Source: Minisyncoccota bacterium
GTDB lineage: Bacteria > Patescibacteriota > Minisyncoccia > Phycocordibacterales > SBAW01
Direction: 5' to 3'
DNA: 64,000 nucleotides
Assembly: GCA_035546615.1 (NCBI GenBank)
Contig: DASZWM010000003.1
Location: 32,001 to 96,000 of the forward strand
Under the pieces are notes generated by a model. That model ran no database searches. It saw only the letters and a program-made list of their open reading frames with translations, and was not told the DNA's origin. Made by a program: the position numbers and the translations under genes. Numbering within the stretch: position 1 is the first letter of the stretch; each line of letters begins with the position of its first letter. Below, one piece after another: positions 1 through 52,857 of this stretch.

Positions 1-438
1 AGCACATAGCGCACCGCAAGCGGCGGGTAAAATACCTGCGGGTACGTATCGGGAGATACGTTCTCGTTTATAGAAACCACGTTTCCCGTCTCGGAAATAA
101 AAAGTATGTCTATGGGGAACCGCATGTCCTTCATCCATATTCCCCAATCGCCGTTGTGCTCGAATGCCAAAAGCATTCCCCTGCCCTCAGGTAAAGAAGT
201 GCGGCCCGACAGCCCCTGCTCCTCCTGAGCTTGGTCGCTGGCTACTTCCACGACAATTGTGGTCGTGCCGACGGATATTTCTTTCGTTGGGAGCATAGTC
301 GGAACGGCAGGCATAGGATTGAAAGAATAATACAGCAAGAAAACTGCTACAGCAGCTGCGCCTATGCCGATGGCAACAAATGCCGATTTCATATCGATAC
401 TATAACCCTTCAAGTGTTGAGTTTTGCGTTAAGAGCTT

Positions 439-16465: not shown

Positions 16466-16966
16466 CTAGCGCTGGTTCTCCTCCAGCAGGCGCTTGTCCT
16501 CTTCGGTCGGCTCCAAATCCAGGCATACCGAGTTCAGGCAATAGCGCTTGCCGGTCGCGGTAGGGCCGTCGTCAAACACGTGGCCCAGATGGCTGCCGCA
16601 GTTGGCGCACAATACCTCCGTGCGGTGCATGCCGTAGGCGTTATCGGCCTTAAACTCCACCGCGCCCGGAAGCGCCTGGTCGAACGACGGCCAGCCGGTG
16701 CCGGAGTCGAATTTCGCGCTGGAGGCGAAAAGCGGATTGTTGCACGCCGCGCAGCGGTACACGCCGTCGCGATCTTCGTGCAGGAGCTTGCCGGAGAACG
16801 GCGCCTCCGTCCCGCGCTCGCGCAATATCGCGTACTGCTCGGGCGTGAGCTTCTGCTTCCAGCCCTCCTCGTCGCGCGGCATGTCGTCGTGGTCGTGATG
16901 TGTATTGGAATTAGTCATAGGTTTTCTGTCGAATCGATAGGTATAAGTATACAAACTCCTACTCAT
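16466..16966 (-). CDS. msrB: Peptide-methionine (R)-S-oxide reductase MsrB
   Basis: SelR domain with CxxC...CxxC zinc site and catalytic RYCLNSVCL. An alternative ATG lies at 16918. Confidence 0.9.
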
Positions 16967-17657
16967 AGACTACTTCTGTTATCTCCGCGTGCGGGTTCGG
17001 TATGACGCACAGGACCTTTCCGGCTATCTTAAAGTCCTCGCGGAGCACTATCGGGCGGTACTTGGGGTTCTTGGATTCCGGATACAGTATCGTGACGCCG
17101 TTCTTCTTTTCGTAGCGCTTCACCGTCACCATATCGCCCACTATCGCCGCCACCCGGTCGCCGTTCTGCGCCTCGTCGGTAAAGCGGATAAGCACGTAGT
17201 CGCCCGGATTGATGCCCGCGTCCTGCATGGAGTCGCCTACCGCGCGCACCGCCACGATGCCGCCCTCTTCCCCCGCGCCGCGCGGAGCAACCTCCTCGCC
17301 GCGGTACGGCCCGTCGGCTATGGTCTTGTCCACTTCAAGGAATTCGTCGTACTGCTCCTGCGCAAAAAGGCTCAGGTCGTCGCAGCCGACGTTCGCCACC
17401 ACCGGCACGCTGACCGTCCGGTTGGGCATGCCGTCGGAATCGGCATTGCGCAGCTCTATGTTGCGGCGCGCGTGCTTGCGGCGGTAGATGTAGCCTTTTT
17501 CCTCCAGCGCCTCCAGATACTGCGTCACGGTGCGCAGCGACTTGAGTTTGAGGCTCGCCTTGAGCTCCTCCAGGGTCGGCGGCTCCTTGTGCTTGAGCAT
17601 GTAGGCCTCAAGCGTATCGAGCACGTGCTGCTGTTTAATTGTGAGTGCGTGCTGCAT
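16959..17657 (-). CDS. lexA: LexA repressor (S24 peptidase)
   Basis: N-terminal wHTH, Ala-Gly cleavage region VANVGCDD, and a GDSM...K catalytic dyad region. Confidence 0.95.
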
Positions 17658-17760
17658 ACCTACATACTAAACCAGGTCTTTTTTGTGTGCAATACACAAC
17701 ATACACAAGTTGGGGATAACCGGCGCGACAAGCGTGCACACAAGTCTTTAGGCTACAGAG

Positions 17761-18381
17761 ATGGCTATCGCCCGCACCGCAGACCAGGGGAAACTATTTG
17801 ACTTGCCGCTGTCGCTCCCCAACGGATTGGTCTACCGGCCGGATTTCCTGACGCCCGAGGAAGAAGAACTGTTGCTGGCGTACGTAGAGAATCTGCCGAT
17901 GGTGCACCCCACATTCGAAGAGCACGAGGCAAAACGGCGGCTTGCCGCGTTCGGCTGGAGCTACGACTTTGAGCGCGAAAAGCTTATCGAGGGCCCGCCG
18001 CTTCCGAAATTCCTGCATCCGGCGCAAAGGAAGATCGCCAAATGGCTCGGTATCTCCCCCGCCCGGGTGGTTGAGGCGCTGGTGCAGGAGTACACGCCGG
18101 GCTCGGCCATAGGCTGGCACCGCGACAACGAAAAGTTCGAATCTATCATCGGCATTTCGCTCGCGGGCTGGTGCAGGATGCGTTTCAGGCCCTTGGGCCT
18201 GAAACAATCAAGAAGTAGGCCGCTCGCAGCGAAAGATGTTGTGGCTCTGGAGCTCGAACCCCGCTCCTGCTACATCATGCAGAAGGACGTGCGGTGGAAG
18301 TGGCAGCATTCGGTGGCGCCCGTCAAAACCCTGCGCTATTCGATAACGTTCCGGACCCTGCCGGAGGGGTTTCGGCCCTAA
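17761..18381 (+). CDS. alkB: AlkB-like 2OG-Fe(II) oxygenase (alkylated DNA repair dioxygenase)
   Basis: IGWHRDNE (HxD) ... H ... RYSITFR motifs. It is divergent from lexA. Confidence 0.85.
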   Translation: MAIARTADQGKLFDLPLSLPNGLVYRPDFLTPEEEELLLAYVENLPMVHPTFEEHEAKRRLAAFGWSYDFEREKLIEGPPLPKFLHPAQRKIAKWLGISPARVVEALVQEYTPGSAIGWHRDNEKFESIIGISLAGWCRMRFRPLGLKQSRSRPLAAKDVVALELEPRSCYIMQKDVRWKWQHSVAPVKTLRYSITFRTLPEGFRP

Positions 18382-21193: not shown

Positions 21194-21242
21194 AGGCTCC
21201 TATTATACATATCCGGTACTTTCGAAACTAGAAGCCTGGCTC

Positions 21243-21524
21243 TTATTTTAGCTTTTTGCAAAAAGCTAAAATACTTTCGGCGCGGGGCGTGAGGGTATGG
21301 CGTACGTTCATCCCGTCGCTGCGCTTGTAGAGGAGCCCGGCGATAGCCATCTTGCGCAGATGGTCGGAAGCGTTCATATATCCCATCCCCAGCTTTTCCG
21401 CTATCCCCTCGATCGAGAGGCCCGGGGTCTGCTTGAGCAGATCCAATACCTGAAGGCGCCTATAGCTGGCAAAGCCTTTCACTATCCGCTCAAGCCGGCG
21501 ATATTCGCCCTGGTCTTTCGGCAT
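21243..21524 (-). CDS. ArsR/SmtB family transcriptional regulator
   Basis: HTH RLQVLDLLKQTPGLSIEGIAEKLGMGYMNASDHLRKM. The track start at 21560 is TTG; an ATG lies at 21524. Confidence 0.8.
   Translation of the reverse strand: MPKDQGEYRRLERIVKGFASYRRLQVLDLLKQTPGLSIEGIAEKLGMGYMNASDHLRKMAIAGLLYKRSDGMNVRHTLTPRAESILAFCKKLK
21246..21271. repeat. 26-bp perfect palindrome TTTTAGCTTTTTGCAAAAAGCTAAAA (copy 1 of 3) overlapping arsR stop
   Basis: Seen directly. Related copies lie at about 21551-21565 and 21609-21634. Confidence 0.8.
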
Positions 21525-21550
21525 GGCGAAGACTATATACGGTGTTTTAC

Positions 21551-21565
21551 GTTTTTGCAAAAAGC
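21551..21565. promoter_or_regulatory. Palindrome copy 2 (GTTTTTGCAAAAAGC) about 30 nt upstream of arsR ATG; candidate operator
   Basis: Seen directly. Confidence 0.5.
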
Positions 21566-21608
21566 TTTGATAAAAGGGCGGGGCGGGCGGGAACGAAAGG
21601 CTTTATCA

Positions 21609-21634
21609 CGGCTTTTTGCAAAAAGCTAAAATAA
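21609..21634. repeat. Palindrome copy 3 (GGCTTTTTGCAAAAAGCTAAAATA)
   Basis: Seen directly. Confidence 0.7.
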
Positions 21635-21647
21635 AAGAAATACATAA

Positions 21648-21694: not shown

Positions 21695-22105
21695 TTATCT
21701 GATGCGGATCCGGCGGAGGGCTTTGCGGGCTTTTTTGTAGTCCGGAATGGTCTCTTCGACCAGGGCCCAGAAGGCGGGGCTGTGGTTCATTTCCTTCAGG
21801 TGGCACAGCTCGTGGGTTACGACATATTCGGCCAGGCGCGGCGGCAAGAAAAGGAGGCGGTAGTTGAAGTTGAGGTTGCCGTGCTCCGAGCAGCTCCCCC
21901 ACCGCGAACGGCTGTTCTTTATGAATACCCGGCGCACGGCGTAGTCGTAGTGCGCGTTGAGGCGCGCGATGAGCGCATGGACAAGCGCGCGAGCCTCTTC
22001 CTTATACAGCTGGAACTTCCGCGAACTAGCCGCCGAAGCCGGGCGTCGTCTCCGTACCCGCCGCCGATATACGATTTTGTATCCAAACACCGAGGTATTG
22101 TACAA
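21695..22105 (-). CDS. YgjP-like metal-dependent hydrolase (DUF45/M48-like, HExxH)
   Basis: WGSCSEHGNLNFNYRLLFLPPRLAEYVVTHELCHLKEMNHSPAFW. TTG start, Arg-rich N-terminus. This is the last GC-rich gene before the island. Confidence 0.6.
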   Translation of the reverse strand: MYNTSVFGYKIVYRRRVRRRRPASAASSRKFQLYKEEARALVHALIARLNAHYDYAVRRVFIKNSRSRWGSCSEHGNLNFNYRLLFLPPRLAEYVVTHELCHLKEMNHSPAFWALVEETIPDYKKARKALRRIRIR

Positions 22106-22141
22106 CCTTACTTAATGGCAGGCTCAGATATAGATTTATAA

Positions 22142-22540
22142 CTACAAAATTGAGATAACTTTCTTAACGACGGAGTCTGAAGCACTCTTGAGTCGATGTT
22201 CCCATATTCTTAATACCTTCCAATTCATACTTTTTAATTGTTTATTAACCAATCTATCTCTTTTCTTATTTCTTTCTATTTTGTTAGTCCAATATGCGCG
22301 ATTTGTCTTTGGAACTCTACAGTGAGTCTTACATCCGTGCCAAAAACAAGAGTCAATGAAAATTGCTGTCTTAGAAACAGAAAAAACAATATCAGGTCTG
22401 CCTGGCAATTTTGCCACATGAGTTGTAAACTTTAGTTTACTTTTTTTCAGTTGCTTCTGAAAAGATTTTTCTATACCTGAATTTCTACTCTTAATGAGAC
22501 GCATTATTTCGCTGCGTCTTCCAGAAGATACATTGTCCAT
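22142..22540 (-). CDS. vsr: Very short patch repair endonuclease Vsr
   Basis: FIDSCFWHGC...P.TN..YW..KI..N..RD motifs. Confidence 0.9.
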   Translation of the reverse strand: MDNVSSGRRSEIMRLIKSRNSGIEKSFQKQLKKSKLKFTTHVAKLPGRPDIVFSVSKTAIFIDSCFWHGCKTHCRVPKTNRAYWTNKIERNKKRDRLVNKQLKSMNWKVLRIWEHRLKSASDSVVKKVISIL

Positions 22541-22544
22541 GCCT

Positions 22545-23612
22545 TTATTCTTCTATATCCCAACCTGTTGGAAGTGTGATTTTGGTATAGGCTCTTTCTT
22601 TGATAAAAGGGACAATCTCTGCGCTCGAAGGAAACTCTGCGTCAAATTCTCTCGTTAAATCACTTAACAAAGTGCCAGCAAGTCGTTCTCTATATTCTTT
22701 ACTGAGGCAAAGAGTATACCAGTCATGCAAATCTTTAAGAGTAATTATTCCTTGCACACGCTCAATAATCCCGAGCTGTTGTAGCAGGGCCTCAATAGGT
22801 TTCTTTTCTGCGTCTCGACAAACAATTACAATCCTGTCCGCTTCGATTCCCTCGACAATTCCTTCGGTTACTTCAGGAGTAAGTGTAAGGTGTTTTACCT
22901 GGATAGCTGTTCCAAAATTTGCCCACATATCTAATCCCCTATCCGCCGCATTCGTTACGCCAACTCTAAAAAGGGCTGCGGGCATAGCTACTTGAGTCTT
23001 TCTGGCATCTATGCCTAAAACCATTTTTATAAAACCTTCAAAATCAGTAAGTATTTCTTTGTCTTCATTTTTAATCGAAAGGGTGATTTCCGCTTTTAAT
23101 GCTCGTACAATAGCGGAAAAAAGAGCATGCACTGCTATTTCATATATTTTATCTGTGCTTCGTCTCAAGCCAGGACTTGATGTAAAAAGTTCCACTAATT
23201 CCATTATGGAAAAAGTGTCCACTGTTGACTGTTCGATATAGTCTCTTACCCGATGAACAGATAGTAACTTATTTTGTAAAGCTTTATAAATATAAGCCTC
23301 TACTCCGCCCTTACTTGTTGTATTTATTTTTCCTAACACTGCCAATAGTTGGGGCGGCATAGCATTAGGCTCAAAGATATTATCTTGGTACTTTGCGCTA
23401 GAAGTACTGCTCCTCCCAACAAGTAAGGTGGAGACTTCATCTCTCCAACGTTTAGAGACAGAGCGATAACTTTCTAGATCAGTTAGTTCTAGCTTTTTCT
23501 TAGTTCTATGATAGAAAAGTATCTCCGCTATCTGTATAGGTTTATAGAAGTGCACTCTGGCCTTCTTTATAACTGAATCCAGAGCCGCTTTTGCTTCTTC
23601 AGCCATTGACAT
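22545..23612 (-). CDS. Putative type II restriction endonuclease (family unassigned)
   Basis: The 355-aa ORF lies between the C5-MTase and vsr and overlaps the MTase stop by 14 nt. No family was identified by eye. Confidence 0.5.
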   Translation of the reverse strand: MSMAEEAKAALDSVIKKARVHFYKPIQIAEILFYHRTKKKLELTDLESYRSVSKRWRDEVSTLLVGRSSTSSAKYQDNIFEPNAMPPQLLAVLGKINTTSKGGVEAYIYKALQNKLLSVHRVRDYIEQSTVDTFSIMELVELFTSSPGLRRSTDKIYEIAVHALFSAIVRALKAEITLSIKNEDKEILTDFEGFIKMVLGIDARKTQVAMPAALFRVGVTNAADRGLDMWANFGTAIQVKHLTLTPEVTEGIVEGIEADRIVIVCRDAEKKPIEALLQQLGIIERVQGIITLKDLHDWYTLCLSKEYRERLAGTLLSDLTREFDAEFPSSAEIVPFIKERAYTKITLPTGWDIEE

Positions 23613-24621
23613 ACGCCCGTTCTACCATATTTATGTCTTTTCCGCTAAACAATTCAGTTTGTTCAATAAAAGGAACCGGGTCTTTCGACATTGCTTCAAC
23701 CATTGCGTGGGCCACTGCTTCCATCTGAGGAACCACTACAGCATTACCAGCTTGCTTCCGGATTTGCTGGTCAGCAACAACAAATTTATATGAATCGGGA
23801 AAACCCTGTAATCTAAACATCTCTCTAGGAGTCAGTCTTCTTTCTCCATTTACAATAAGATAGTTATATGAACCATTAGCCCTAAGAGCGCATGAATAAG
23901 CATTCACGCCTAGGTTTCCAGACTTATTTTCGTGCAAGATTAACGGACGAGAATGAAGTTCTTTGTGTTGTTCTTTTAATTGTCTCTGGACTTTCTGCAA
24001 CATATAATCGCTAAGAAAGTGTTTTTTATCGACCTCATTATCAGGCTCAAGGATGTCTTCAAGAGTTTTCTTTTTTCCCCTCCCTTTGGTAGGAAATTCA
24101 AAAGGGTAGTTTTCTCTAAAACCTACAATCATTATTCGCTCTCTCTTTTGCGGAACGCCAAAATCTAGACCATTTAAAACTTTAAAGTGCACAAAATAAC
24201 CTAGTTTTCTTAAACTATTTAGAATTACTGAAAACGTCCTTCCTTGATCATGATTGGTAAGTTGTTTTACATTTTCCAAAAATAGAGCTTTTGGTTTCTT
24301 TGCCTTTAGAATTCTCTCAACATCAAAAAACAACGTGCCTCTTGTTTCAGAGAAACCTTTCATATTCCCCATGATGCTAAAAGCTTGGCATGGAAAACCG
24401 CCTGTCAAAATATCATGGTCAGGCACATCTTTTGCAACTATTTTCGTTATATCTCCATCTGGCTGGTCGCCGAAATGATTCTTATACATCTTCTGCGCAG
24501 CTTCATCCCATTCTGATGTAAAAACACATTTACCTCCTGCCGCTTCAAAACCAAGTCTAATGCCTCCAATTCCTGCAAAGAGATCGATAAAAGTAAATTT
24601 ATTCTTATTCGTTGGAGCCAT
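23599..24621 (-). CDS. dcm: DNA (cytosine-5)-methyltransferase
   Basis: Motif I FIDLFAGIGG, motif IV GGFPCQAFS, motif VI ENV, motif VIII QRRERI-like. Confidence 0.95.
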   Translation of the reverse strand: MAPTNKNKFTFIDLFAGIGGIRLGFEAAGGKCVFTSEWDEAAQKMYKNHFGDQPDGDITKIVAKDVPDHDILTGGFPCQAFSIMGNMKGFSETRGTLFFDVERILKAKKPKALFLENVKQLTNHDQGRTFSVILNSLRKLGYFVHFKVLNGLDFGVPQKRERIMIVGFRENYPFEFPTKGRGKKKTLEDILEPDNEVDKKHFLSDYMLQKVQRQLKEQHKELHSRPLILHENKSGNLGVNAYSCALRANGSYNYLIVNGERRLTPREMFRLQGFPDSYKFVVADQQIRKQAGNAVVVPQMEAVAHAMVEAMSKDPVPFIEQTELFSGKDINMVERAYVNG

Positions 24622-24851
24622 AGAGCAATATATTTTAACACCTATTTTAAGCTTGCTATATTTTTAATAATAGCACTGAAATCTATATTTATACACAATA
24701 TACACAAGTCTTGGGGATAACTTTAGTGAGGGCCGTTTTTGGTCCAGGATAGCCGTATCCGCCAGCCGATAAAAATAGAGTAAGGGGGTAAAGATCAGCA
24801 ATCGTGGGATGAGCGTGTCTAATAGTCACCTAAGGATTTATAGCCATAAGG

Positions 24852-25193
24852 CTATTGTGGCAAACCCTTAATTTTGTTTCTGAAGAAATTAAATCGCATC
24901 TTAGCATAGTCCCAAAGAAAAGAGCAGAACGACTTATTTGGATGTCTTTTTATTTCACGCAAGTTCTCGAAAGCATAATTAAGTATATCTATAAATAATA
25001 ACCCTGGTACAACACCCAATGCGAATATATACCAATCAGAAAAACGTGTTTTTAACAAACTGTAAGTCGCATTTACTGCAATTCCAAGAACTACCGCAAG
25101 CGTCGCACCGAGTATCACAAATGCCCACTGTATTTGTAGACTTCTTTCCTCTTGTAAATCACCCTTGTTCATGGCGAATATATCTAATAACAA
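24852..25193 (-). CDS. Small two-TM membrane protein (candidate effector of the Ubl/E1 module)
   Basis: Two hydrophobic helices (WAFVILGATLAVVLGIAV; WYIFALGVVPGLLFIDIL). TTG at 25193 or ATG at 25172. It lies 8 nt after the upstream stop. Confidence 0.5.
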   Translation of the reverse strand: MLLDIFAMNKGDLQEERSLQIQWAFVILGATLAVVLGIAVNATYSLLKTRFSDWYIFALGVVPGLLFIDILNYAFENLREIKRHPNKSFCSFLWDYAKMRFNFFRNKIKGLPQ

Positions 25194-25201
25194 GTAAAAA
25201 A

Positions 25202-25612
25202 TTATTCGAAGAAGCTACGCAATTGGACTAATATCCAGTTTCCAAATCGTCGCCACCATGACAGGGAGGAATGAATAAAGTATGCATCCTTGATGGTATC
25301 GTCATATTCTCGCCCGTGGCGTATCTGTTCTCGAGTCATCTTCGACGCCCAAATCACTTGATTTTCAATAATCCAATAATGTGACTGACAAGGATGATTC
25401 CAGTTTCCTATTGAAGGACGTAGCGAGACCACCCCCTGCCAATCAACTAGCGTATATTCGGTCTTACGGAGAGGGGTAACGATTTTAGTGCCACAACTGC
25501 AACAGCACAAATGGCTCGCGGTTCCGAAACGTCGTGAGATATATAGAACACCACTCTCAAGCTCTCTTGGTATGAACTCAACATATTCAGGACGCACCAA
25601 CTCTGTCTTCAT
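25202..25612 (-). CDS. Cys-rich Zn-ribbon-like protein (DUF6527-like, recalled)
   Basis: HLCCCSCGTK...NHPCQSH cluster. The ATG at 25612 overlaps the E1-like gene stop (ATGA-type coupling). Confidence 0.5.
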   Translation of the reverse strand: MKTELVRPEYVEFIPRELESGVLYISRRFGTASHLCCCSCGTKIVTPLRKTEYTLVDWQGVVSLRPSIGNWNHPCQSHYWIIENQVIWASKMTREQIRHGREYDDTIKDAYFIHSSLSWWRRFGNWILVQLRSFFE

Positions 25613-26808
25613 ATACAATCCTCTTTTGTAAGGGCGTGGGTCGCAATCGTGTACAGCGAATGACGTTCTCGCACATCATCAGCATAAAAACCACACAATT
25701 GCTTCCATTTTCCCACAGCCATGGCAGCATTTAGCATATTTAGGTCCGCAACCTGCATATTACGGTACACCGCCTCGGCCGGCACTTTTGCAAATGAAAC
25801 AACTTCCGCAATATGTCCATGATGGTCGGGTGTTCCAACTGTAAAGCGACACTGTCCGCGCAGAGACGCCTGATTATCGAGTGCCAAGTCTATTCCAACG
25901 TCTATGAACGGCACACCAAGAGCAATAAGGCCATTAAGTATGTTCTTCCGGCTCTCTCCGTCGTCGATAGCAACAAACACGAAGTCGAACCCGGACAGCT
26001 CGTGGAGATGCGCGTCCTGGACATAGTAGGGATGACGCTTCAAGCCCTTGTGTATACGTTCGTATATACCACTGAACCAATCCACTTTTAGTGGATTGTT
26101 AAGCTCCTGCTTCATCGGAGCACCCGGTGCTCTAAACGCGTTGTGGAGTTCGAACGTATCCCCATCGAAAATGTGGATTTCTTTCACCGGCGTCTTAGCA
26201 ACAAGGTCGAGAATATACGAACCAGTACCACCTAGTCCTATAATCGCCACCCGACTTGCAAGGAGTTTCGCCGTGGCCGCTCCAATACCAGCACGGGTTG
26301 TTGCCATATCAGGATAATGGAATGCGAGTTCCTGAGCTTCGACTACCGCCGGTACTGGTTTTTCACTTCGTGGATCGCAAGTCCGATCAATTGCTTGAGC
26401 TTCGTGCCAAATCAGACGAACATATGTCCAGATTTTTTCGTAGTAGTCGGCATACTTGCGCTTATCAGCGTGCACACGCGAGAAGGCGACAGTCGTCTTA
26501 ATCCCATCGCCCTTATCCTCCTCAGCGTTGTTCGAAATCATCTCCGTCATTAGTTGACCATCCGCGTTGTGCGGGGGTTCTCCAATCCACCAACACTGAT
26601 GGTTGGAACATGGATTCACTGTCTTTCCGGCCGCATCAATTTCAAGTGGGCAATAGAGAATTCCAGGCACTATTTTGCCTTCAGAGGTAACAGCAGGAAT
26701 TCCCTCAATTAAAAGATGAGAGGCAGTCCCTTGAATGACCCGGAGACGAAAACCTTCCGCCTCCAACTTTGCCAAATCGGCATTATGACTTATCCGTATT
26801 TCTGACAT
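25609..26808 (-). CDS. E1-like ThiF/MoeB-fold enzyme with ~165-aa N-terminal domain of unknown fold
   Basis: VAIIGLGGTGSYILDLVAKTPVKEIHIFDGDTFELHNAFR is a ThiF nucleotide-binding motif. The N-terminal domain has conserved-looking C/H residues (YCPLE, NPCSNHQCWW, PPHN). Confidence 0.8.
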   Translation of the reverse strand: MSEIRISHNADLAKLEAEGFRLRVIQGTASHLLIEGIPAVTSEGKIVPGILYCPLEIDAAGKTVNPCSNHQCWWIGEPPHNADGQLMTEMISNNAEEDKGDGIKTTVAFSRVHADKRKYADYYEKIWTYVRLIWHEAQAIDRTCDPRSEKPVPAVVEAQELAFHYPDMATTRAGIGAATAKLLASRVAIIGLGGTGSYILDLVAKTPVKEIHIFDGDTFELHNAFRAPGAPMKQELNNPLKVDWFSGIYERIHKGLKRHPYYVQDAHLHELSGFDFVFVAIDDGESRKNILNGLIALGVPFIDVGIDLALDNQASLRGQCRFTVGTPDHHGHIAEVVSFAKVPAEAVYRNMQVADLNMLNAAMAVGKWKQLCGFYADDVRERHSLYTIATHALTKEDCI

Positions 26809-27040
26809 CGAAGTTCATATGATCGACCACATCTACACTTTGGCCCCGGCGAAGCGATCCTTCGTGTCCACCTGGCTTAGTCCATGAAACGCTGTAGCGA
26901 ACATCGCCTCCGAACGGACCAGTTGGGAATGCGAGCTTGATGACTTGCTCGTAGCTAATATCGTGTTCACCCCACTTCTCTTGAATACCGTTCACAACAA
27001 TGCTTATGGTGTGTCCATGCCCTTTATTATCGTCTGCCAT
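26783..27040 (-). CDS. Multiubiquitin-like beta-grasp protein (85 aa, no C-terminal GG)
   Basis: ISIVVNG...ISYEQVIKLAFP...RYSVSW...GQSVDVVDHMNFDVR matches, from memory, the multiubiquitin domain pattern of prokaryotic E1/E2 operons. It overlaps the E1-like gene start by 26 nt. Confidence 0.5.
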   Translation of the reverse strand: MADDNKGHGHTISIVVNGIQEKWGEHDISYEQVIKLAFPTGPFGGDVRYSVSWTKPGGHEGSLRRGQSVDVVDHMNFDVRNTDKS

Positions 27041-27224
27041 ATAATTTTAATTGTCGGCTTTTTAATTTAAGTGCGGCACCGGTCGACCGCACTTGTATCG
27101 TACACCCATTTCTGATACCCTTGCAAGGTAACTAGATGTATCAAATGTTACCTAAAGTACCATATTTGTTATATCTGATACCTGTTGTTACAACCTATAA
27201 CAAGTTACGCACAGATTTCAAATC

Positions 27225-27584
27225 ATGAGAAAATCATCCGCTACAATAAACAATGAAAGCAGATCCACAGAGCTTGAAATCCGGAAAGAGATTGGCAGAC
27301 GTATCGCTGAAATGCGTAGCAAACTGGGGCTTACAGCTCGCCTTGTTGCCAAAGAACTTCATGTCTCACGCGAAGCCATTACTCACATTGAAACAGGGCG
27401 AAACAATATATCTGCCGTATCGCTGTGGGAATTGGCGACTCTCTTCCATTGTGATATTGCTGATTTTTTCCCTGATATTCCTAATGGATATTCTTTAACT
27501 AGGGTCGATATTAATAAAGTAGCACAAATGAGTGGAAAGACAGGGGCGGCATGGGCTGAAAAGATTTTTGGGAAAAAGAAATAA
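27225..27584 (+). CDS. XRE-family HTH transcriptional regulator (CapH/ImmR-like)
   Basis: HTH_3 signature IGRRIAEMRSKLGLTARLVAKELHVSREAITHIETGRNNIS. Confidence 0.85.
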   Translation: MRKSSATINNESRSTELEIRKEIGRRIAEMRSKLGLTARLVAKELHVSREAITHIETGRNNISAVSLWELATLFHCDIADFFPDIPNGYSLTRVDINKVAQMSGKTGAAWAEKIFGKKK

Positions 27585-27588
27585 ATAT

Positions 27589-28083
27589 ATGATGTCAGAA
27601 AGAATTGAGAAAAAAGCGGAGGAAGTCTTAAGCGCACTGAATGTTAAGTCAATACCTATCTCTGTTGAAGAAATCGCGAATCAATTAAAGATCAAGATAG
27701 GAAGAGCACCTAGTAGTGAATTTTCTGGAATGTTGATTCGAAAAGATGGTCGAGCACTTATGGGTATAAATAACAGTGAAGGCACTGCGAGACAACGATT
27801 CACTATTGCGCATGAACTTGGGCATTATTTCTTACATCCACAAAATGATACTTTTGTAGACTATAGGCAGAACGAAAAAGAACCAAGAAATCATAGAGAA
27901 CGAGAGGCTGATATGTTTGCAGCAGCACTCTTAATGCCTAGGAAAGAAGTAACAAAAGACTTTCAGAAAATTGTTAGGAAAGGATTTTCAGAAATTGAAC
28001 TTCACAAACTGGCAGGAAAATATGAAGTGAGCGACAAAGCAATGAGATTTAGGTTAGTAAACTTAAATATGCTATTAGGTTAA
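27589..28083 (+). CDS. ImmA/IrrE family Zn-metallopeptidase (CapP/ImmA-like)
   Basis: HELGHYFLH HExxH motif in the COG2856 fold context. It lies immediately downstream of the XRE gene. Confidence 0.85.
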   Translation: MMSERIEKKAEEVLSALNVKSIPISVEEIANQLKIKIGRAPSSEFSGMLIRKDGRALMGINNSEGTARQRFTIAHELGHYFLHPQNDTFVDYRQNEKEPRNHREREADMFAAALLMPRKEVTKDFQKIVRKGFSEIELHKLAGKYEVSDKAMRFRLVNLNMLLG

Positions 28084-28087
28084 GATT

Positions 28088-28348
28088 TTATTGTCTACTC
28101 CCTTGTGATCCTAATCTATCCGTAAAAGGTCCCTCACGATGGGCCGCCGGATCTACATCCTTTTTTGTAATAACCTGGGGAAAGCGGGTATTTTCTTCAA
28201 TCTGCTCTAGTAACGTGACTATTCTGTTCAATTTCCAGTACCAGGTAAGGATTTCCCTGATCAGGAGGAATATCAGAGCGCCCACGCATAGGACAAAAAC
28301 GATATTTGGTAGCTGGGACCAGTAATATTGAAATAAGGGTTGAAGCAT
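28088..28348 (-). CDS. Small membrane protein (one TM helix), downstream partner of AbrB-like gene
   Basis: IVFVLCVGALIFLLI helix. Coordinates are from the track. Confidence 0.4.
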   Translation of the reverse strand: MLQPLFQYYWSQLPNIVFVLCVGALIFLLIREILTWYWKLNRIVTLLEQIEENTRFPQVITKKDVDPAAHREGPFTDRLGSQGSRQ

Positions 28349-28351
28349 ATA

Positions 28352-28540
28352 TTACTTCTTCCAGTCGCGGATTATCAGCTTCTTTCTCTTCAGATCCACC
28401 TCTACGGTGAGCTTTTGGCGCTCTTTCCACTTGAACTTGCGGATAGCCTCCACCGGAAGCGCGACCGTATAGGTACTTCCCCGCCCCGTCTTGGTGAGCT
28501 TGCGGACCTGCTTTTTCTGCCCCGCCTTCGGCCGTGCCAT
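28352..28540 (-). CDS. AbrB/MazE/SpoVT-like small DNA-binding protein (candidate antitoxin)
   Basis: VRKLTKTGRGSTYTVALPVEAIRKFKWKERQKLTVEV resembles the looped-hinge helix fold. Confidence 0.45.
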   Translation of the reverse strand: MARPKAGQKKQVRKLTKTGRGSTYTVALPVEAIRKFKWKERQKLTVEVDLKRKKLIIRDWKK

Positions 28541-28600
28541 GCGGATATGATACCACCGAACTCCTGAGCTAACTCAAGAGTTAGCTCAGGAGTTAATTAA

Positions 28601-28627
28601 AAACCGGCGCCTGGGGCGCCGGTTTGG
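28601..28627. terminator. Bidirectional intrinsic terminator at the island's right edge
   Basis: AAAAACCGGCGCC-TGGG-GCGCCGGTTT. Confidence 0.6.
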
Positions 28628-28642
28628 CCAAGGTTGGCCGGA

Positions 28643-28918
28643 TTACTGAAGCGTGGGGCTGGAGCGGGTCTCGCTTATAGCCCAGTTGCCGTACAGGGTA
28701 TCGAGCTCGAGCTTGAGCTGCACGACCCGCTCGACCATCCCGACGTCTACGACGCGGAGATTAATCATAAAGGCCTCGGCATTGCGTATCGCCGCTTTGA
28801 TCTCCTTCTTCTTCGCGATGATCTCGGGCGGGAGCCGCCGCTTCCCGCTGTGGAAATCTCCGGCAAGCCGGATCATTGTCCGCGCCTCGTCGGGAGTAAG
28901 TACCCGATACTGATCCAA
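28643..28918 (-). CDS. Hypothetical protein
   Basis: A 91-aa ORF with protein-like composition in a GC-rich context. Confidence 0.4.
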   Translation of the reverse strand: MDQYRVLTPDEARTMIRLAGDFHSGKRRLPPEIIAKKKEIKAAIRNAEAFMINLRVVDVGMVERVVQLKLELDTLYGNWAISETRSSPTLQ

Positions 28919-28983
28919 AGCCTCTCTCCTGTCTTATAAGCGGCCACCCGCTTTCGGGTACGATACTAGCATCGAAAAAAGAA

Positions 28984-29016
28984 ATAAAACAGGCCCGCGG
29001 CTTGCGCCGCGGGCCT
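28984..29016 (-). terminator. Intrinsic terminator downstream of 29040..29465
   Basis: GGCCCGCGGC-GCAA-GCCGCGGGCC followed by TTTTATTTCTTTTTT on the minus strand. Confidence 0.6.
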
Positions 29017-29039
29017 CTTGTCTGCCTAACTCCGTGGAG

Positions 29040-29465
29040 TTAGGACCTCTTCCCTGCCGGCTCCATGTAGAAGATCCAGAACTCCAGCGACGAATTGCCG
29101 ACATCCACCATCCAGCCGTGGGCGTACTCGTCGCCGTTATTCACCACGCCGTAGTCGATGTTTACTTTCCCGACCTGGACCGGACCGACCTGGTTGAGGC
29201 CGCAGCGGGGATAGCCGCGAGCGTCGACCTCCTGGTGATACACGGTGTATAGCGCCGTGCTTTCGGCCGGATCCCGATAGCGGGCGTCCAGGAGGGTCTT
29301 CAGATCTTCCTGAGATTTGCACCACAGGACCGGCTGGCGGAACCAACCGTAAAATTCCTCGCCCGGCGGCTGCGCCGAGACGGGAGCTACGAGGCACGCC
29401 ATGCACGCGAGAGCAATCAAAGAACGGTTGAACATCTTGGACCTCGTTGGTTGGTCCTTGGACAT
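29040..29465 (-). CDS. Secreted hypothetical protein
   Basis: Signal peptide MFNRSLIALACMACLVAPVSA from the internal ATG at 29435. Confidence 0.5.
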   Translation of the reverse strand: MSKDQPTRSKMFNRSLIALACMACLVAPVSAQPPGEEFYGWFRQPVLWCKSQEDLKTLLDARYRDPAESTALYTVYHQEVDARGYPRCGLNQVGPVQVGKVNIDYGVVNNGDEYAHGWMVDVGNSSLEFWIFYMEPAGKRS

Positions 29466-29530
29466 CCTCTCTGCCTACACCTTTTTTCGTCCTTGGGAGG
29501 ACATACCGATTGTATGACGTCTTGTGCCGA

Positions 29531-29559
29531 TGGCAAATAGTCCGCGCTTTTGCTAGAGT
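29531..29559 (+). promoter_or_regulatory. Promoter copy 1: TGGCAA-N17-TAGAGT
   Basis: Seen directly. Shares GCGCTTTTGCTA with copy 2. An AGGAGA SD and an ATG at 29590 follow. Confidence 0.5.
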
Positions 29560-29589
29560 ACTGGCTGGCACGAACAACAGGAGACGCGG

Positions 29590-29961
29590 ATGATCAATTG
29601 CCTTATGGTCCGGGGCACCGGCATCACGAACAGCATGTCGAGCCTTCTCTACCGGACCGCCATGCAGATGGTGCAGGAAAAGAAAAGCTCGAAGAAGTTC
29701 AAGGGCGGCGACTGCCAGGGCGTCCTTTCGACAGAATGGAAGTACGCCGGCATGGGCACGATATCGGGCCTGCAGTTCAGCGCGAAGGTGGAGAGCGCGG
29801 CGGGTACGACCGAGGTTACGTTCATCATCCGCTCGCTGGACCTGGACGAACCGGATGACGACTCGTGGGAAGCGGTACCCGACCAGGAGACGTTCGACCG
29901 CTACGCGGTTGCGGACGCGCTCGAAGAGCGGGACGCGATTCCCAGATCCAGGCTCAACTGA
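29590..29961 (+). CDS. Hypothetical protein
   Basis: ATG with a good SD (AGGAGA). 123 aa. Confidence 0.45.
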   Translation: MINCLMVRGTGITNSMSSLLYRTAMQMVQEKKSSKKFKGGDCQGVLSTEWKYAGMGTISGLQFSAKVESAAGTTEVTFIIRSLDLDEPDDDSWEAVPDQETFDRYAVADALEERDAIPRSRLN

Positions 29962-30020
29962 TGCGGATTGCTCCCGCCGAAAAAGCCCCGCGCGCCCCAC
30001 GGCGCGCGGGGCTTTCTGCA

Positions 30021-30049
30021 TGGCAAACGGCCCGCGCTTTTGCTACAGT
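30021..30049 (+). promoter_or_regulatory. Promoter copy 2: TGGCAA-N17-TACAGT
   Basis: A near-identical 35-nt element (ATGGCAAA..CCGCGCTTTTGCTA.AGTAC.GG) to copy 1. Confidence 0.5.
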
Positions 30050-30081
30050 ACGGGCGGATAGAAACTTGAGGAGTGCAGCTG

Positions 30082-50974: not shown

Positions 50975-51244
50975 GCAAAAAGTATAGCACCGAGTTTTGC
51001 ATTCGGGTTCCCTGCGAATAGTCCGGCTTCGTCACCCTGTTCCTCAGCTGCCAGACTTGAGATAGAACCGGTCGCGGGTACGGTGTCCAGATTTGCTGCG
51101 GGTGTAGGAATGTCACTTGTGTATTTTTTGTGGCTTAAAATATAGGGCTCGGTTTCTATTTTAGTTCGAATCTCAGGGGGGTCAAAGAAAAAGCCGCCCG
51201 ACGAACTGAGCCGTCGGGGGCTTTGTTCGCGGGCGGTCGCTGCT

Positions 51245-52502: not shown

Positions 52503-52857
52503 CTTTACTCACAAAGAACGACAATTTCCTAAAGGAACCGGATGCAAAGGCAAAGCAGTCTGCCTTTCATTCCCGCCACTAGAGGATCTGGCAATAGGTA
52601 TATGCCTGAGGCAAATACACACAAAAGATACCTGAAAACGCGCCAAATCTCAACCTATCTTCCGCTTCATCCTATCCTAAGGATGCCTTCAGTAAGCTTT
52701 AGGCATGATAGCCATACTGCTTATATTAGGCTTCAGCATATTCCTGCTCTTTCTCACGGGCATCATCAACATCGCTACCGACCCGATGAGCATCGACCAG
52801 GAGGAAGAAAGGAAGGAAAGGCATAAAGCCCGCTATGCCGCCTCGACGTACCAGTAG

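What the first reader, a model, noticed from the sequence alone, without database searches (positions are those of the whole stretch)
17688..17750. About 32-nt motif in the lexA/alkB divergent promoter region that recurs upstream of the island's dcm gene (site A)
Site A (17691-17720) reads AATACACAACATACACAAGTTGGGGATAAC. It is nearly identical to site B (24690-24721), TATACACAATATACACAAGTCTTGGGGATAAC, with 28 of 30 matching positions plus a 2-nt indel.

Both contain the tandem direct repeat ATACACAA-N1-ATACACAAG followed by TTGGGGATAAC. Site A also carries a third partial copy, CACACAAGTCTTT (17737-17749), and an upstream palindrome TGTGT-N5-ACACA.

Site A sits between divergent lexA (autoregulated in all known systems) and an AlkB-like repair gene. 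Site B sits in the promoter region of the RM cassette inside the foreign island.

A shared operator would tie island expression to the host SOS or DNA-damage circuit. Alternatively it is the binding site of another shared regulator.
Basis: seen in the sequence. Interest (0 to 1): 0.7.

Follow-up and report, generated by a model that had tools for sequence, protein, structure and literature searches.

The report
Shared lexA-type operator on restriction-modification operons
A 30-base control sequence in front of the DNA-damage repressor gene lexA also sits in front of restriction-modification (anti-phage) operons, here and in dozens of related uncultured Paceibacteria, which suggests that these CRISPR-poor bacteria tie their main immune system to the lexA circuit.

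Summary
The window comes from a Candidatus Paceibacterota (Patescibacteria/CPR) genome.

Read in the direction of the downstream gene, the motif is TTATCC(A/C)CA, then 2-5 nt, then TTGTGTAT-N-TTGTGTAT. It abuts the predicted core promoter.

The motif is conserved upstream of lexA in every relative examined (62-91% LexA identity). An unbiased pattern scan of public metagenomes found 85 copies:
- 57 upstream of lexA
- 25 upstream of restriction-modification (RM) operons from about 7 unrelated gene families
- 3 chance hits, and nothing else

Between the window's HaeII-like RM operon and a 71%-identical cassette elsewhere, the 30-nt module is the only conserved upstream block.

Sites A and B are not island-end repeats. 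Synteny places the island at about 22.06-30.04 kb, and the motif is not a dispersed repeat.

Best explanation: a portable operator that puts RM operons under the regulator that controls lexA. That regulator is most likely LexA itself (about 0.55). This is inferred from autoregulation logic, not shown.

The first element is also a consensus DnaA box, so DnaA or another factor remains a live rival.

I rate this a new variant of a known kind, of moderately high interest.

The parts
17711..17719 (-). Site A, box0: TTATCCCCA, a DnaA-box-like 9-mer one mismatch from TTATCCACA.
   Evidence: The same position reads TTATCCACA or TTATCCCCA in the lexA promoters of L082, L085, L086, L002 and L294-L296.
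17692..17708 (-). Site A, tandem boxes TTGTGTAT-G-TTGTGTAT (box1 is 17708->17701, box2 is 17699->17692).
   Evidence: Identical in the lexA promoters of relatives L004, L082, L085, L086, L294 and L295.
17664..17692 (-). Predicted lexA core promoter: -35 TTGCAC (17692->17687, sharing one base with box2), a 17-nt spacer, -10 TAGTAT (17669->17664). The ATG at 17657 is 6 nt after the -10, so the mRNA would be leaderless or nearly so.
   Evidence: Inference from the sequence and from the aligned promoters of relatives. The simple sigma-70 scanner did not call this promoter.
17737..17748 (+). Single box-like copy CACACAAGTCTT, 12 nt before the alkB-like ATG. Its status is uncertain.
   Evidence: 6 matches at up to 2 mismatches against 2.1 expected. 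A similar sequence occurs at the same place in L082, but that whole spacer is similar, so this is not diagnostic.
16959..17657 (-). lexA, 232 aa.
   Evidence: Pfam LexA_DNA_bind plus Peptidase_S24. Homologues are named LexA from Candidatus Paceibacterota.
24712..24720 (-). Site B, box0: TTATCCCCA.
24691..24707 (-). Site B, tandem boxes TTGTGTAT-A-TTGTGTAT.
   Evidence: This is the only block conserved with the orthologous HaeII-like cassette in L271.
24632..24675 (-). Two candidate promoters for the RM operon. The first is an extended -10, TGC-TATTAT (24675->24667), at the family's usual distance from the boxes. The second is GTGT-TAAAAT (-10 at 24637->24632), 10 nt before the dcm ATG.
   Evidence: Inference from the sequence and from the family consensus TRTG-n-TAnAAT at +32..+41 from box1. 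The scanner called neither on this strand.
22142..24621 (-). RM operon downstream of site B: C5 methyltransferase (23599-24621), HaeII-type endonuclease (22545-23612), Vsr (22142-22540).
   Evidence: Pfam. GC3 is about 0.30 against about 0.8 for host genes.
22060..30040 (.). Inserted variable region (defence island) that contains site B.
   Evidence: Synteny break against L082. Low GC. It also carries a CapH/CapP-like pair and a ubiquitin-like E1 operon.

Best explanation
The motif is the operator part of a compact promoter cassette. Read toward the gene, the cassette is: TTATCC(A/C)CA (box0), then 2-5 nt, then two TTGTGTAT boxes 9 bp apart, then the core promoter. The second box abuts or overlaps the -35 position, and an extended -10 (TRTG-n-TAnAAT) lies about 35 nt after box1.

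In Paceibacteria this cassette drives lexA. The same cassette has been placed in front of RM operons of many unrelated families, including the HaeII-like M-R-Vsr operon in this window's island.

The most likely mechanism is as follows. LexA binds the TTGTGTAT boxes and blocks RNA polymerase at the -35 region. In many lexA promoters there is a further box just after the -10. LexA would then repress its own gene and the RM operons together, and DNA damage (RecA-stimulated LexA self-cleavage) would de-repress both.

The LexA DNA-binding helix is nearly invariant across the clade. An RM cassette carrying this operator would therefore be regulated in any Paceibacteria host it enters.

Shown here:
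- the module's existence, its conservation, its promoter-proximal position and orientation, and its exclusive association with lexA and RM operons
- selective conservation of the module against diverged flanks

Inferred:
- that LexA is the binder, that binding represses, and that damage induces
- the role of box0, which could be a third, inverted LexA half-site or a separate DnaA site
For: Conservation upstream of lexA:
- The module is conserved upstream of lexA in loci found by protein similarity, independently of the motif: L002, L003, L004 (62-64% identity), L086 (74%), L085 (81%), L082 (90%) and L294/L295 (91%).
- In about 20 kb around lexA in each relative, the tandem boxes occur only at lexA.

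Unbiased scan:
- A metagenome scan with TATCCMCAN{1,7}TGTGTAWNTTGTGTA returned 85 modules: 57 before lexA, 25 before RM genes and 3 chance or coding hits.
- The RM genes fall in Pfam DNA_methylase, N6_N4_Mtase (four size classes), MethyltransfD12 and RE_NgoPII.

Selective constraint:
- The window's RM operon and L271 are 71% identical over 2 kb of coding DNA.
- Upstream of them only the module aligns, at 27 of 30 positions.

Repressor-like layout:
- The boxes abut the core promoter.
- An extra TGTGTA occurs at +40..+44 in 12 of 47 lexA promoters, against 0.7 expected.
- L294 carries a perfect palindrome of the half-site, GTGTATA-T-TATACAC.

LexA as the binder:
- No other conserved non-core element exists in these lexA promoters, yet lexA autoregulation is near-universal (established knowledge).
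- LexA motifs are known to vary widely between lineages and to include direct repeats (PMC8565304).
- The LexA recognition-helix region (S40-L48) is invariant or nearly so across 21 relatives.
- The S24 catalytic Ser and Lys are present.
Against: - No binding or expression data exist.
- None of the 85 modules precedes recA, uvrA, a translesion polymerase or any other canonical SOS gene. No such promoter from this lineage was available to inspect.
- The boxes sit mostly upstream of the -35, a position also typical of activators.
- Box0 is a perfect DnaA-box consensus in most copies, and the boxes share the core AT(A/C)CACA with DnaA boxes.
- The box0-box1 spacing varies from 2 to 5 nt, even within one contig, which argues against a rigid dimer spanning them.
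- The core promoters are weak by E. coli rules and were not called by the scanner.
- Many of the metagenomic copies come from related genomes at a few sites, so the counts are not independent events.
- The published Patescibacteria LexA motif (Sanchez-Osuna et al. 2017) could not be read here.
Confidence: 0.55

Rival explanations
1. The module is a cluster of DnaA boxes. DnaA binds box0 (TTATCCACA) as a monomer, and possibly the weaker ATACACA boxes too. Transcription of lexA and the RM operons would then be coupled to replication status rather than to LexA cleavage. A mixed form is possible: DnaA on box0 and LexA on the tandem boxes.
For: - Box0 equals the 9-mer DnaA consensus in 3 of 7 lexA promoters found independently of the motif, and differs by 1-2 bases in the rest.
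- The unforced base before TATCC is T in 35 of 48 lexA modules and 20 of 22 RM modules.
- Site B's boxes read TTATACACA and ATATACACA on the + strand.
- Monomeric binding would tolerate the variable spacing and mixed orientations seen.
- A position upstream of the -35 is usual for DnaA-controlled promoters (general knowledge).
Against: - Position 7 of box0 alternates freely between A and C, and it is C at both window sites, although CACA is the most constrained part of DnaA boxes (general knowledge).
- The bases that would be positions 1-2 of the tandem boxes are not TT and are not conserved toward it.
- A universal DnaA-based module should turn up in other phyla and at replication origins, but every genuine hit of the scan was at a Paceibacteria-type lexA or an RM operon.
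- It would leave lexA with no recognisable LexA operator.
- The window shows no enrichment of DnaA boxes: 10 against 6.8 expected.
Confidence: 0.2
2. A different, so far unidentified transcription factor binds the boxes and co-regulates lexA and the RM operons. It would be neither LexA nor DnaA. It could be a lineage-specific regulator, perhaps one encoded in the same variable region.
For: - The regulon seen (lexA plus RM only, with no classical SOS gene) is unlike any described LexA regulon.
- A conserved 62-aa small basic protein gene lies upstream of the RM module, in the same orientation, in 14 of 25 RM contigs and in the window.
- An ArsR-like regulator is also syntenic.
Against: - The small protein's own promoter carries quite different repeats (ACTCAGTAGTTA type).
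- That gene was not found in the roughly 20 kb around lexA in L082, L085 and L086, where the lexA module is intact.
- The ArsR-like gene is flanked by its own palindromes, GCTTTTTGCAAAAAGC.
- The only gene invariably linked to the module is lexA itself.
Confidence: 0.15
3. The similarity has no regulatory meaning for the RM operon. Either the lexA promoter was copied onto RM cassettes by local duplication or recombination in a hotspot near lexA, or the module acts as a recombination or insertion site, and it simply supplies a constitutive promoter.
For: - RM modules lie 2-8 kb upstream of lexA, in the same orientation, in several contigs (L213, L236, L256, L266 and the window). Local copying is therefore plausible.
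- In L213 the RM and lexA promoters are alike over about 58 nt, including the spacer.
- In related contigs a 27-nt repeat flanks many cassette-like genes and abuts RM modules.
Against: - Sites A and B are not island ends: the island spans about 22.06-30.04 kb by synteny.
- Only the boxes are conserved while the flanks, the -35, the spacer and the -10 have diverged, both between sites A and B and between orthologous cassettes. This indicates selection on the boxes themselves.
- Modules also precede RM operons in contigs with no lexA on the stretch held.
- No recombinase gene was seen next to the modules in the contexts examined.
Confidence: 0.1

Closest known systems
Autoregulated lexA promoters with multiple SOS boxes, and direct-repeat LexA motifs (Alphaproteobacteria GTTC-N7-GTTC)
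   Same: - Repeated short boxes in lexA's own promoter, close to the core promoter elements and conserved across a lineage.
- The direct-repeat geometry has precedent for LexA (PMC8565304).
   Different: - The box sequence (TTGTGTAT), the 9-bp period and the extra inverted DnaA-like element match none of the LexA motifs quoted in the one paper I could read.
- Binding by LexA is untested.
- No canonical SOS gene was found carrying the module.
Controller (C) protein operators (C-boxes) of type II RM systems, e.g. PvuII and Esp1396I
   Same: An operator immediately upstream of an RM operon that sets its expression (PMC2175313, PMC3488213).
   Different: - C-boxes are bound by a small HTH protein encoded inside the cassette, and they are specific to each system.
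- Here there is no C gene in the operon.
- The same operator serves about 7 unrelated RM families and the host's lexA.
DNA-damage-responsive regulators of defence operons: CapH/CapP, CapW and CapK/CapS
   Same: - They couple expression of anti-phage systems to DNA damage (bioRxiv 10.1101/2022.04.27.489752; PMC11662680).
- A CapH/CapP-like pair sits in the same island, next to a ubiquitin-like operon.
   Different: - Those systems bring their own sensor and repressor genes.
- The RM operons here carry only a cis element matching the host lexA promoter. They would borrow the host's master regulator.
Host LexA boxes embedded in mobile DNA, such as integron integrase promoters, colicin operons and some prophages (from general knowledge, not checked here)
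   Same: Horizontally mobile genes that carry an operator for the recipient's SOS repressor.
   Different: I found no report of this for RM operons in the library searches. Here it recurs across a whole lineage and many RM families.
DnaA boxes and DnaA-box clusters outside oriC
   Same: A consensus TTATCCACA 9-mer with neighbouring weaker, oppositely oriented AT(A/C)CACA boxes.
   Different: - A and C alternate freely at a critical position.
- The module occurs only at lexA and RM promoters.
- No link to an origin or to dnaA was seen.

Membership tests
LexA operator (SOS box) | Present in lexA's own promoter and conserved among orthologous promoters | tested here: met
   - Loci found independently of the motif carry the module: L002, L003 and L004, L082, L085 and L086, and L294/L295.
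- 57 metagenomic copies precede lexA.
LexA operator (SOS box) | Overlaps or abuts core promoter elements, so that binding would repress | tested here: inconclusive
   - Box2 abuts or overlaps the predicted -35, and an extra box lies at +40..44 in 12 of 47 lexA promoters.
- The promoters are predicted only, and the scanner did not call them.
LexA operator (SOS box) | Also found upstream of canonical SOS genes (recA, uvrA, dinB/umuDC) in the same lineage | tested here: inconclusive
   - None of the 85 composite modules precedes such a gene.
- However, the pattern required all three elements, and no recA or uvrA locus of this lineage was among about 700 kb of fetched DNA.
LexA operator (SOS box) | Bound by LexA, with de-repression after DNA damage | not testable with these tools
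   This needs EMSA or footprinting, plus expression data.
LexA operator (SOS box) | Agreement with the published LexA motif for Patescibacteria | not tested
   Sanchez-Osuna et al. 2017 (PMID 28618189) is not held in the library. Citing papers do not quote the motif.
DnaA box | 9-mer matching TTATNCACA | tested here: inconclusive
   - Box0 is TTATCCACA in many copies, but TTATCCCCA at both window sites and in about 20% of copies.
- The tandem boxes match only positions 3-9.
DnaA box | Association with oriC, dnaA or other DnaA-controlled loci | not tested
   No dnaA or oriC locus from this lineage was available.
RM controller (C-protein) operator | A C gene (small HTH protein) in the cassette, with a C-box upstream of it | tested here: not met
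   - The window operon is M-R-Vsr only.
- The upstream 113-aa ORF has no Pfam or PADLOC hit.
- The same operator serves unrelated RM families and lexA.
Island-flanking att repeats | Direct repeats located at the two ends of the inserted DNA | tested here: not met
   - The island spans about 22.06-30.04 kb by synteny with L082.
- Site A lies 4.3 kb outside the island, and site B lies 2.6 kb inside it.
Dispersed intergenic repeat (REP/MITE-like) or uptake sequence | Many copies per genome, with no fixed relation to promoters | tested here: not met
   - There are two copies in 64 kb.
- There is one copy per roughly 20 kb in each relative, always at lexA.
- All genuine metagenomic copies point at lexA or an RM gene.

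The most novel reading that the evidence does not exclude
In Paceibacteria, and perhaps more widely in CRISPR-poor CPR bacteria, RM operons are the main non-lexA members of the LexA regulon. A portable roughly 30-nt operator travels with RM cassettes between genomes. Each newly acquired restriction system is therefore wired at once into the host's DNA-damage switch. This could boost defence when foreign or damaged DNA appears, or raise methylase levels when self-restriction causes breaks.
Probability: 0.4. Interest if true: 0.8.

Novelty: new variant of a known kind. Interest (0 to 1): 0.66.

Why it matters
CPR/Patescibacteria are generally reported to lack CRISPR and to rely largely on RM systems (my own knowledge, not checked here), yet almost nothing is known about how they regulate anything.

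If the module is a LexA operator, three things follow.
- It gives a concrete LexA box for this class.
- It shows an SOS regulon of unusual content, with immunity genes rather than repair genes.
- It reveals a plug-and-play route by which horizontally acquired RM cassettes are regulated by the recipient. This differs from the self-contained C-protein, CapH/CapP and CapW solutions.

Even if the binder is another factor, the strict pairing of lexA with RM operons through one cis element is a directly testable regulatory link in organisms that cannot yet be grown alone.

Tried and rejected
- Island-end (att) repeats. Rejected, because synteny with L082 puts the insertion at about 22.06-30.04 kb.
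- Dispersed repeat. Rejected.
- Structured RNA near the sites or at the weak third site. There are no Rfam hits other than tRNAs.
- Scan of viral contigs with the bare tandem repeat.
- Scan of viral contigs with the composite pattern. It gave 4 hits. Three lie in AT-rich sequence with no promoter-like layout. One (L209) looks module-like, but its neighbouring ORFs resemble none of the Paceibacteria contexts.
- The genome-contig scan with a LexA alignment. It was swamped by a generic S24 peptide pattern and gave only three close relatives.
- Signature-peptide searches for RecA, UvrA, UvrB, RuvB, RNR and DnaA in about 700 kb of fetched Paceibacteria DNA. They found nothing usable.
- Relaxed motif search (up to 3 mismatches) in the same DNA. 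Extra hits were at about the chance level.
- The 62-aa small protein next to RM modules as the binder. Considered unlikely.
- Literature. The Patescibacteria SOS paper is not held. Searches found no report of LexA control of RM operons or of this motif.
- Co-variation of box0 variant or spacing between the lexA and RM modules of one contig. It is not consistent. The window shares the CCCC variant at both sites, but L213 and L236 do not, and spacing differs within the window and within L236.

Full report
**1. The observation**

- The core ATACACAA-N-ATACACAAG occurs exactly only at 17692-17709 and 24691-24708. Shuffles give 0.06 matches even at up to 3 mismatches.
- The 22-nt 3' part of site B has no chance expectation at all.
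- The two sites differ by two substitutions and a 2-nt insertion.
- The partial copy at 17737-17748 and the palindrome TGTGT-N5-ACACA are also present, but the partial copy is only weakly above chance.

**2. Genes and organism**

Pfam confirms the gene calls.
- lexA is at 16959-17657(-), with a LexA DNA-binding domain and an S24 peptidase domain.
- An AlkB-like 2OG-Fe(II) oxygenase is at 17761-18381(+).
- In the low-GC stretch lies a C5 methyltransferase / HaeII-type endonuclease / Vsr operon at 22142-24621(-).

LexA homologues carry source names of Candidatus Paceibacterota, Adlerbacteria and Patescibacteria, so the window is from a CPR bacterium.

Both sites have the same orientation relative to a downstream minus-strand gene. 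The motif is therefore best read on that strand: TTATCCCCA (box0), a short spacer, TTGTGTAT (box1), one base, TTGTGTAT (box2).

**3. Not island ends, not a dispersed repeat**

Alignment with L082, a contig from a relative at 90% LexA identity, shows collinear host genes on both sides of a break at about 22.06 kb and about 30.04 kb.
- Site A lies outside the inserted region.
- Site B lies 2.6 kb inside it.

Two relatives at 91% LexA identity have no RM island near lexA at all, yet keep the lexA module. Within 64 kb there are only these two full copies.

**4. Conservation at lexA**

I fetched lexA loci by protein similarity, independently of the motif.
- They cover 62-64% identity (L002-L004), 74-90% identity (L086, L085, L082) and 91% identity (L294, L295).
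- All carry the same arrangement immediately upstream of lexA.
- Box0 reads TTATCCACA or TTATCCCCA in most of them, and CTATCCCCA and CTGTCCACA in the two most distant.
- The tandem boxes are identical or differ by one to three bases.
- In about 20 kb around lexA in each relative, the tandem boxes occur nowhere else.

**5. Where else the module occurs**

A scan of public metagenome contigs with TATCCMCAN{1,7}TGTGTAWNTTGTGTA returned 82 stretches holding 85 modules. I classified the downstream genes with a LexA HMM and with Pfam.
- 57 modules precede lexA.
- 25 precede RM genes.
- 3 are chance hits in coding or AT-rich DNA.
- Nothing else was found.

The RM genes are C5 methyltransferases of several types, N6/N4 methyltransferases in four size classes (273-289, 530 and 801 aa), a D12-class adenine methyltransferase, and an NgoPII endonuclease followed by a C5 methylase. 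One contig (L271) carries the same HaeII-like M-R pair as the window.

The module always points at the first gene of the operon.

The same pattern in viral contigs gave only 4 hits. None lies in a context that resembles the Paceibacteria loci.

**6. Evidence for selection on the boxes**

- The window's RM operon and L271 align at 71% over 2 kb of coding DNA. Upstream of the methylase only the roughly 30-nt module aligns, at 27 of 30 positions, and the flanks are unrelated.
- Sites A and B in the window likewise share only the module. Their -35, spacer and -10 regions differ.

**7. Anatomy**

Consensus over 48 distinct lexA modules and 22 distinct RM modules:
- Box0 lies 2-5 nt before box1.
- Box1 and box2 are 9 bp apart.
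- A TTGCAN or TTTACA hexamer follows directly after box2.
- A TRTG-type extended -10 (TTGTGCTAnAAT or TGTGTTAAAT) lies about 32-41 nt after the start of box1.
- With that -10, the -35 position falls on the 3' end of box2.
- In lexA promoters the ATG follows the -10 by roughly 6-25 nt, which suggests very short leaders.
- An extra TGTGTA occurs at +40..+44 in 12 of 47 lexA promoters, against 0.7 expected from shuffles. Many of these promoters are related, so that count overstates independence.
- Inverted pairs of the half-site occur around the -10 or the start codon in several promoters, for example GTGTA-AAA-TACAC in the 530-aa methylase class and GTGTATA-T-TATACAC in L294.

In the window the inferred lexA promoter is TTGCAC, 17 nt, TAGTAT, with the ATG 6 nt further on. 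For dcm there is an extended -10, TGC-TATTAT, at the family's usual distance, plus a second candidate (GTGT-TAAAAT) 10 nt before the ATG. These promoters are inferences. The simple sigma-70 scanner called none of them.

**8. Who binds**

*The case for LexA.*
- lexA is the only gene invariably linked to the module.
- lexA autoregulation is near-universal (established knowledge).
- These promoters contain no other conserved non-core element.
- LexA motifs are known to change radically between lineages and to include direct repeats (PMC8565304).
- The LexA recognition-helix region is nearly invariant across the clade, matching the near-invariant boxes.
- The boxes flank the core promoter, as repressor sites do.

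*The case against LexA, or for another binder.*
- No classical SOS gene was found with the module. No recA or uvrA locus of this lineage could be obtained either.
- Box0 is the DnaA-box consensus in most copies. The tandem boxes share its AT(A/C)CACA core.
- The variable spacing and orientation would suit monomeric DnaA binding.

*Against DnaA.*
- Box0 alternates freely between A and C at a position within the conserved CACA. Both window copies have C.
- The tandem boxes do not conserve the leading TT.
- A universal DnaA-based module should have been found in other lineages and at replication origins. The scan found it only at Paceibacteria-type lexA and RM operons.

My ranking is LexA about 0.55, DnaA (alone, or on box0 together with LexA) about 0.2, another factor about 0.15, and no regulatory role about 0.1.

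The published Patescibacteria LexA motif (Sanchez-Osuna et al. 2017) could not be read here. Comparing with it is the cheapest decisive check.

**9. Context of the RM modules**

- In the window and in 14 of the 25 RM contigs, a conserved 62-aa small basic protein gene lies upstream of the RM module in the same orientation.
- In several contigs lexA lies further downstream in that same orientation.
- The order is small gene, variable defence genes, an ArsR-like regulator, cyclophilin, then lexA. This points to a variable-gene hotspot a few kb from lexA.
- This may explain how RM cassettes came to carry lexA-type promoters. It does not explain why only the boxes stay conserved.
- Modules also precede RM operons in other contexts.

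**10. Comparison with known systems**

- The logic resembles host LexA boxes embedded in mobile DNA.
- It also resembles the DNA-damage-responsive regulators of defence operons, such as CapH/CapP and CapW.
- It resembles RM C-protein operators in position.
- It differs from all of these in that the RM cassettes carry no regulator gene. They carry only a cis element identical to the host's lexA operator region, shared by about seven unrelated RM families.
- Library searches found no report of LexA-controlled RM operons or of this motif.
- The same island also holds a CapH/CapP-like pair next to a ubiquitin-like E1 operon. Two defence modules in one island therefore appear to be tied to damage-type signalling by different means.

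**11. Verdict**

The shared cis-regulatory module is well supported, and LexA as the binder is inferred.
- The finding generalises from one window to a lineage-wide pattern.
- I rate it a new variant of a known kind, with interest 0.66.

Noticed in passing
window 28352-28540 (-); also L213, L235, L236, L242, L249, L251, L254, L256, L267, L272 (two copies), L275, L287, L288, L212: A conserved 62-aa small basic protein gene (MARPKAGQKKQVRKLTKTGRGSTYTV...) has no Pfam or PADLOC hit and looks AbrB/MazE-like by eye. It lies upstream of RM modules in the same orientation, 44 bp to 3.6 kb away. It is present as a pseudogene or fragment in L244, L270 and L262, and was not found in L082, L085 or L086. 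It seems to mark one side of a variable-gene hotspot near lexA.
   Followed up: partly
window 28549-28585: A perfect palindrome with 17-bp arms, AACTCCTGAGCTAACTC-TT-GAGTTAGCTCAGGAGTT, sits just upstream of the small protein gene. Related ACTCAGTAGTTA-type repeats occupy the same place in the metagenomic copies. It is probably that gene's own operator.
   Followed up: partly
L212-L293, e.g. L242 (3 copies in 2.4 kb), L257 (3 copies), L288, L275; not in the window: A 27-nt element, GTAGCTAAATYCTTCATATTTGATAGG, recurs 35 times on the gene strand. It lies 8-14 nt before the ATG of many unrelated genes, and 2-12 nt before box0 of RM modules from six RM families. It could be a shared promoter or leader, or a cassette-array boundary.
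   Followed up: partly
window 25202-28083: This is a second defence module in the island. A CapH-like HTH (27225-27584) and a CapP-like M78 peptidase (27532-28083; PADLOC capP, E = 4.8e-38) are divergent from a Multi_ubiq gene (26783-27040), an E1/ThiF-DUF6791 gene (25609-26808) and a DUF6527 gene (25202-25618).
   Followed up: partly
window 51116-51133 (+): A weak third site, CTTGTGTATTTTTTGTGG followed by TTAAAATATAG, lies in an intergenic gap between two minus-strand ORFs. It has 3 mismatches to the tandem boxes and no box0. A minus-strand terminator-like hairpin follows at about 51190-51230. Its function is unclear.
   Followed up: partly
window 21240-21637: Three copies of the palindrome GCTTTTTGCAAAAAGC(TAAAATA) flank a small ArsR/MarR-like regulator gene (21243-21560, -). 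They are likely its operators. The gene is syntenic in relatives.
   Followed up: no
window 16959-17657 (LexA protein): The region that aligns with the LexA cleavage site reads VANVGCDD. This gives Val-Gly where Ala-Gly is usual, and it is invariant in 21 relatives. The window's LexA also has a roughly 12-aa Gly/Glu-rich insertion in the linker relative to most relatives.
   Followed up: no
window 29530-29583 and 30020-30073: A 54-nt direct repeat (76% identity, 490 bp apart) ends in GGAG just before two plus-strand ORFs, at the right edge of the inserted region. It may be a duplicated promoter or leader at the island boundary.
   Followed up: no
window 17658-17669 and many lexA loci (L216, L221, L262 and others): The lexA start codon lies only about 6-25 nt after the predicted -10 element in this clade. 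This suggests leaderless or near-leaderless lexA transcripts.
   Followed up: no
window 52615-52621 (-): A single ATACACA box lies in the gap between pyrG and tRNA-Gln, next to a low-GC 94-aa ORF (52542-52826). Six of the eleven ATACACA/TGTGTAT 7-mers in the window are intergenic, although only 14% of the window is intergenic.
   Followed up: no
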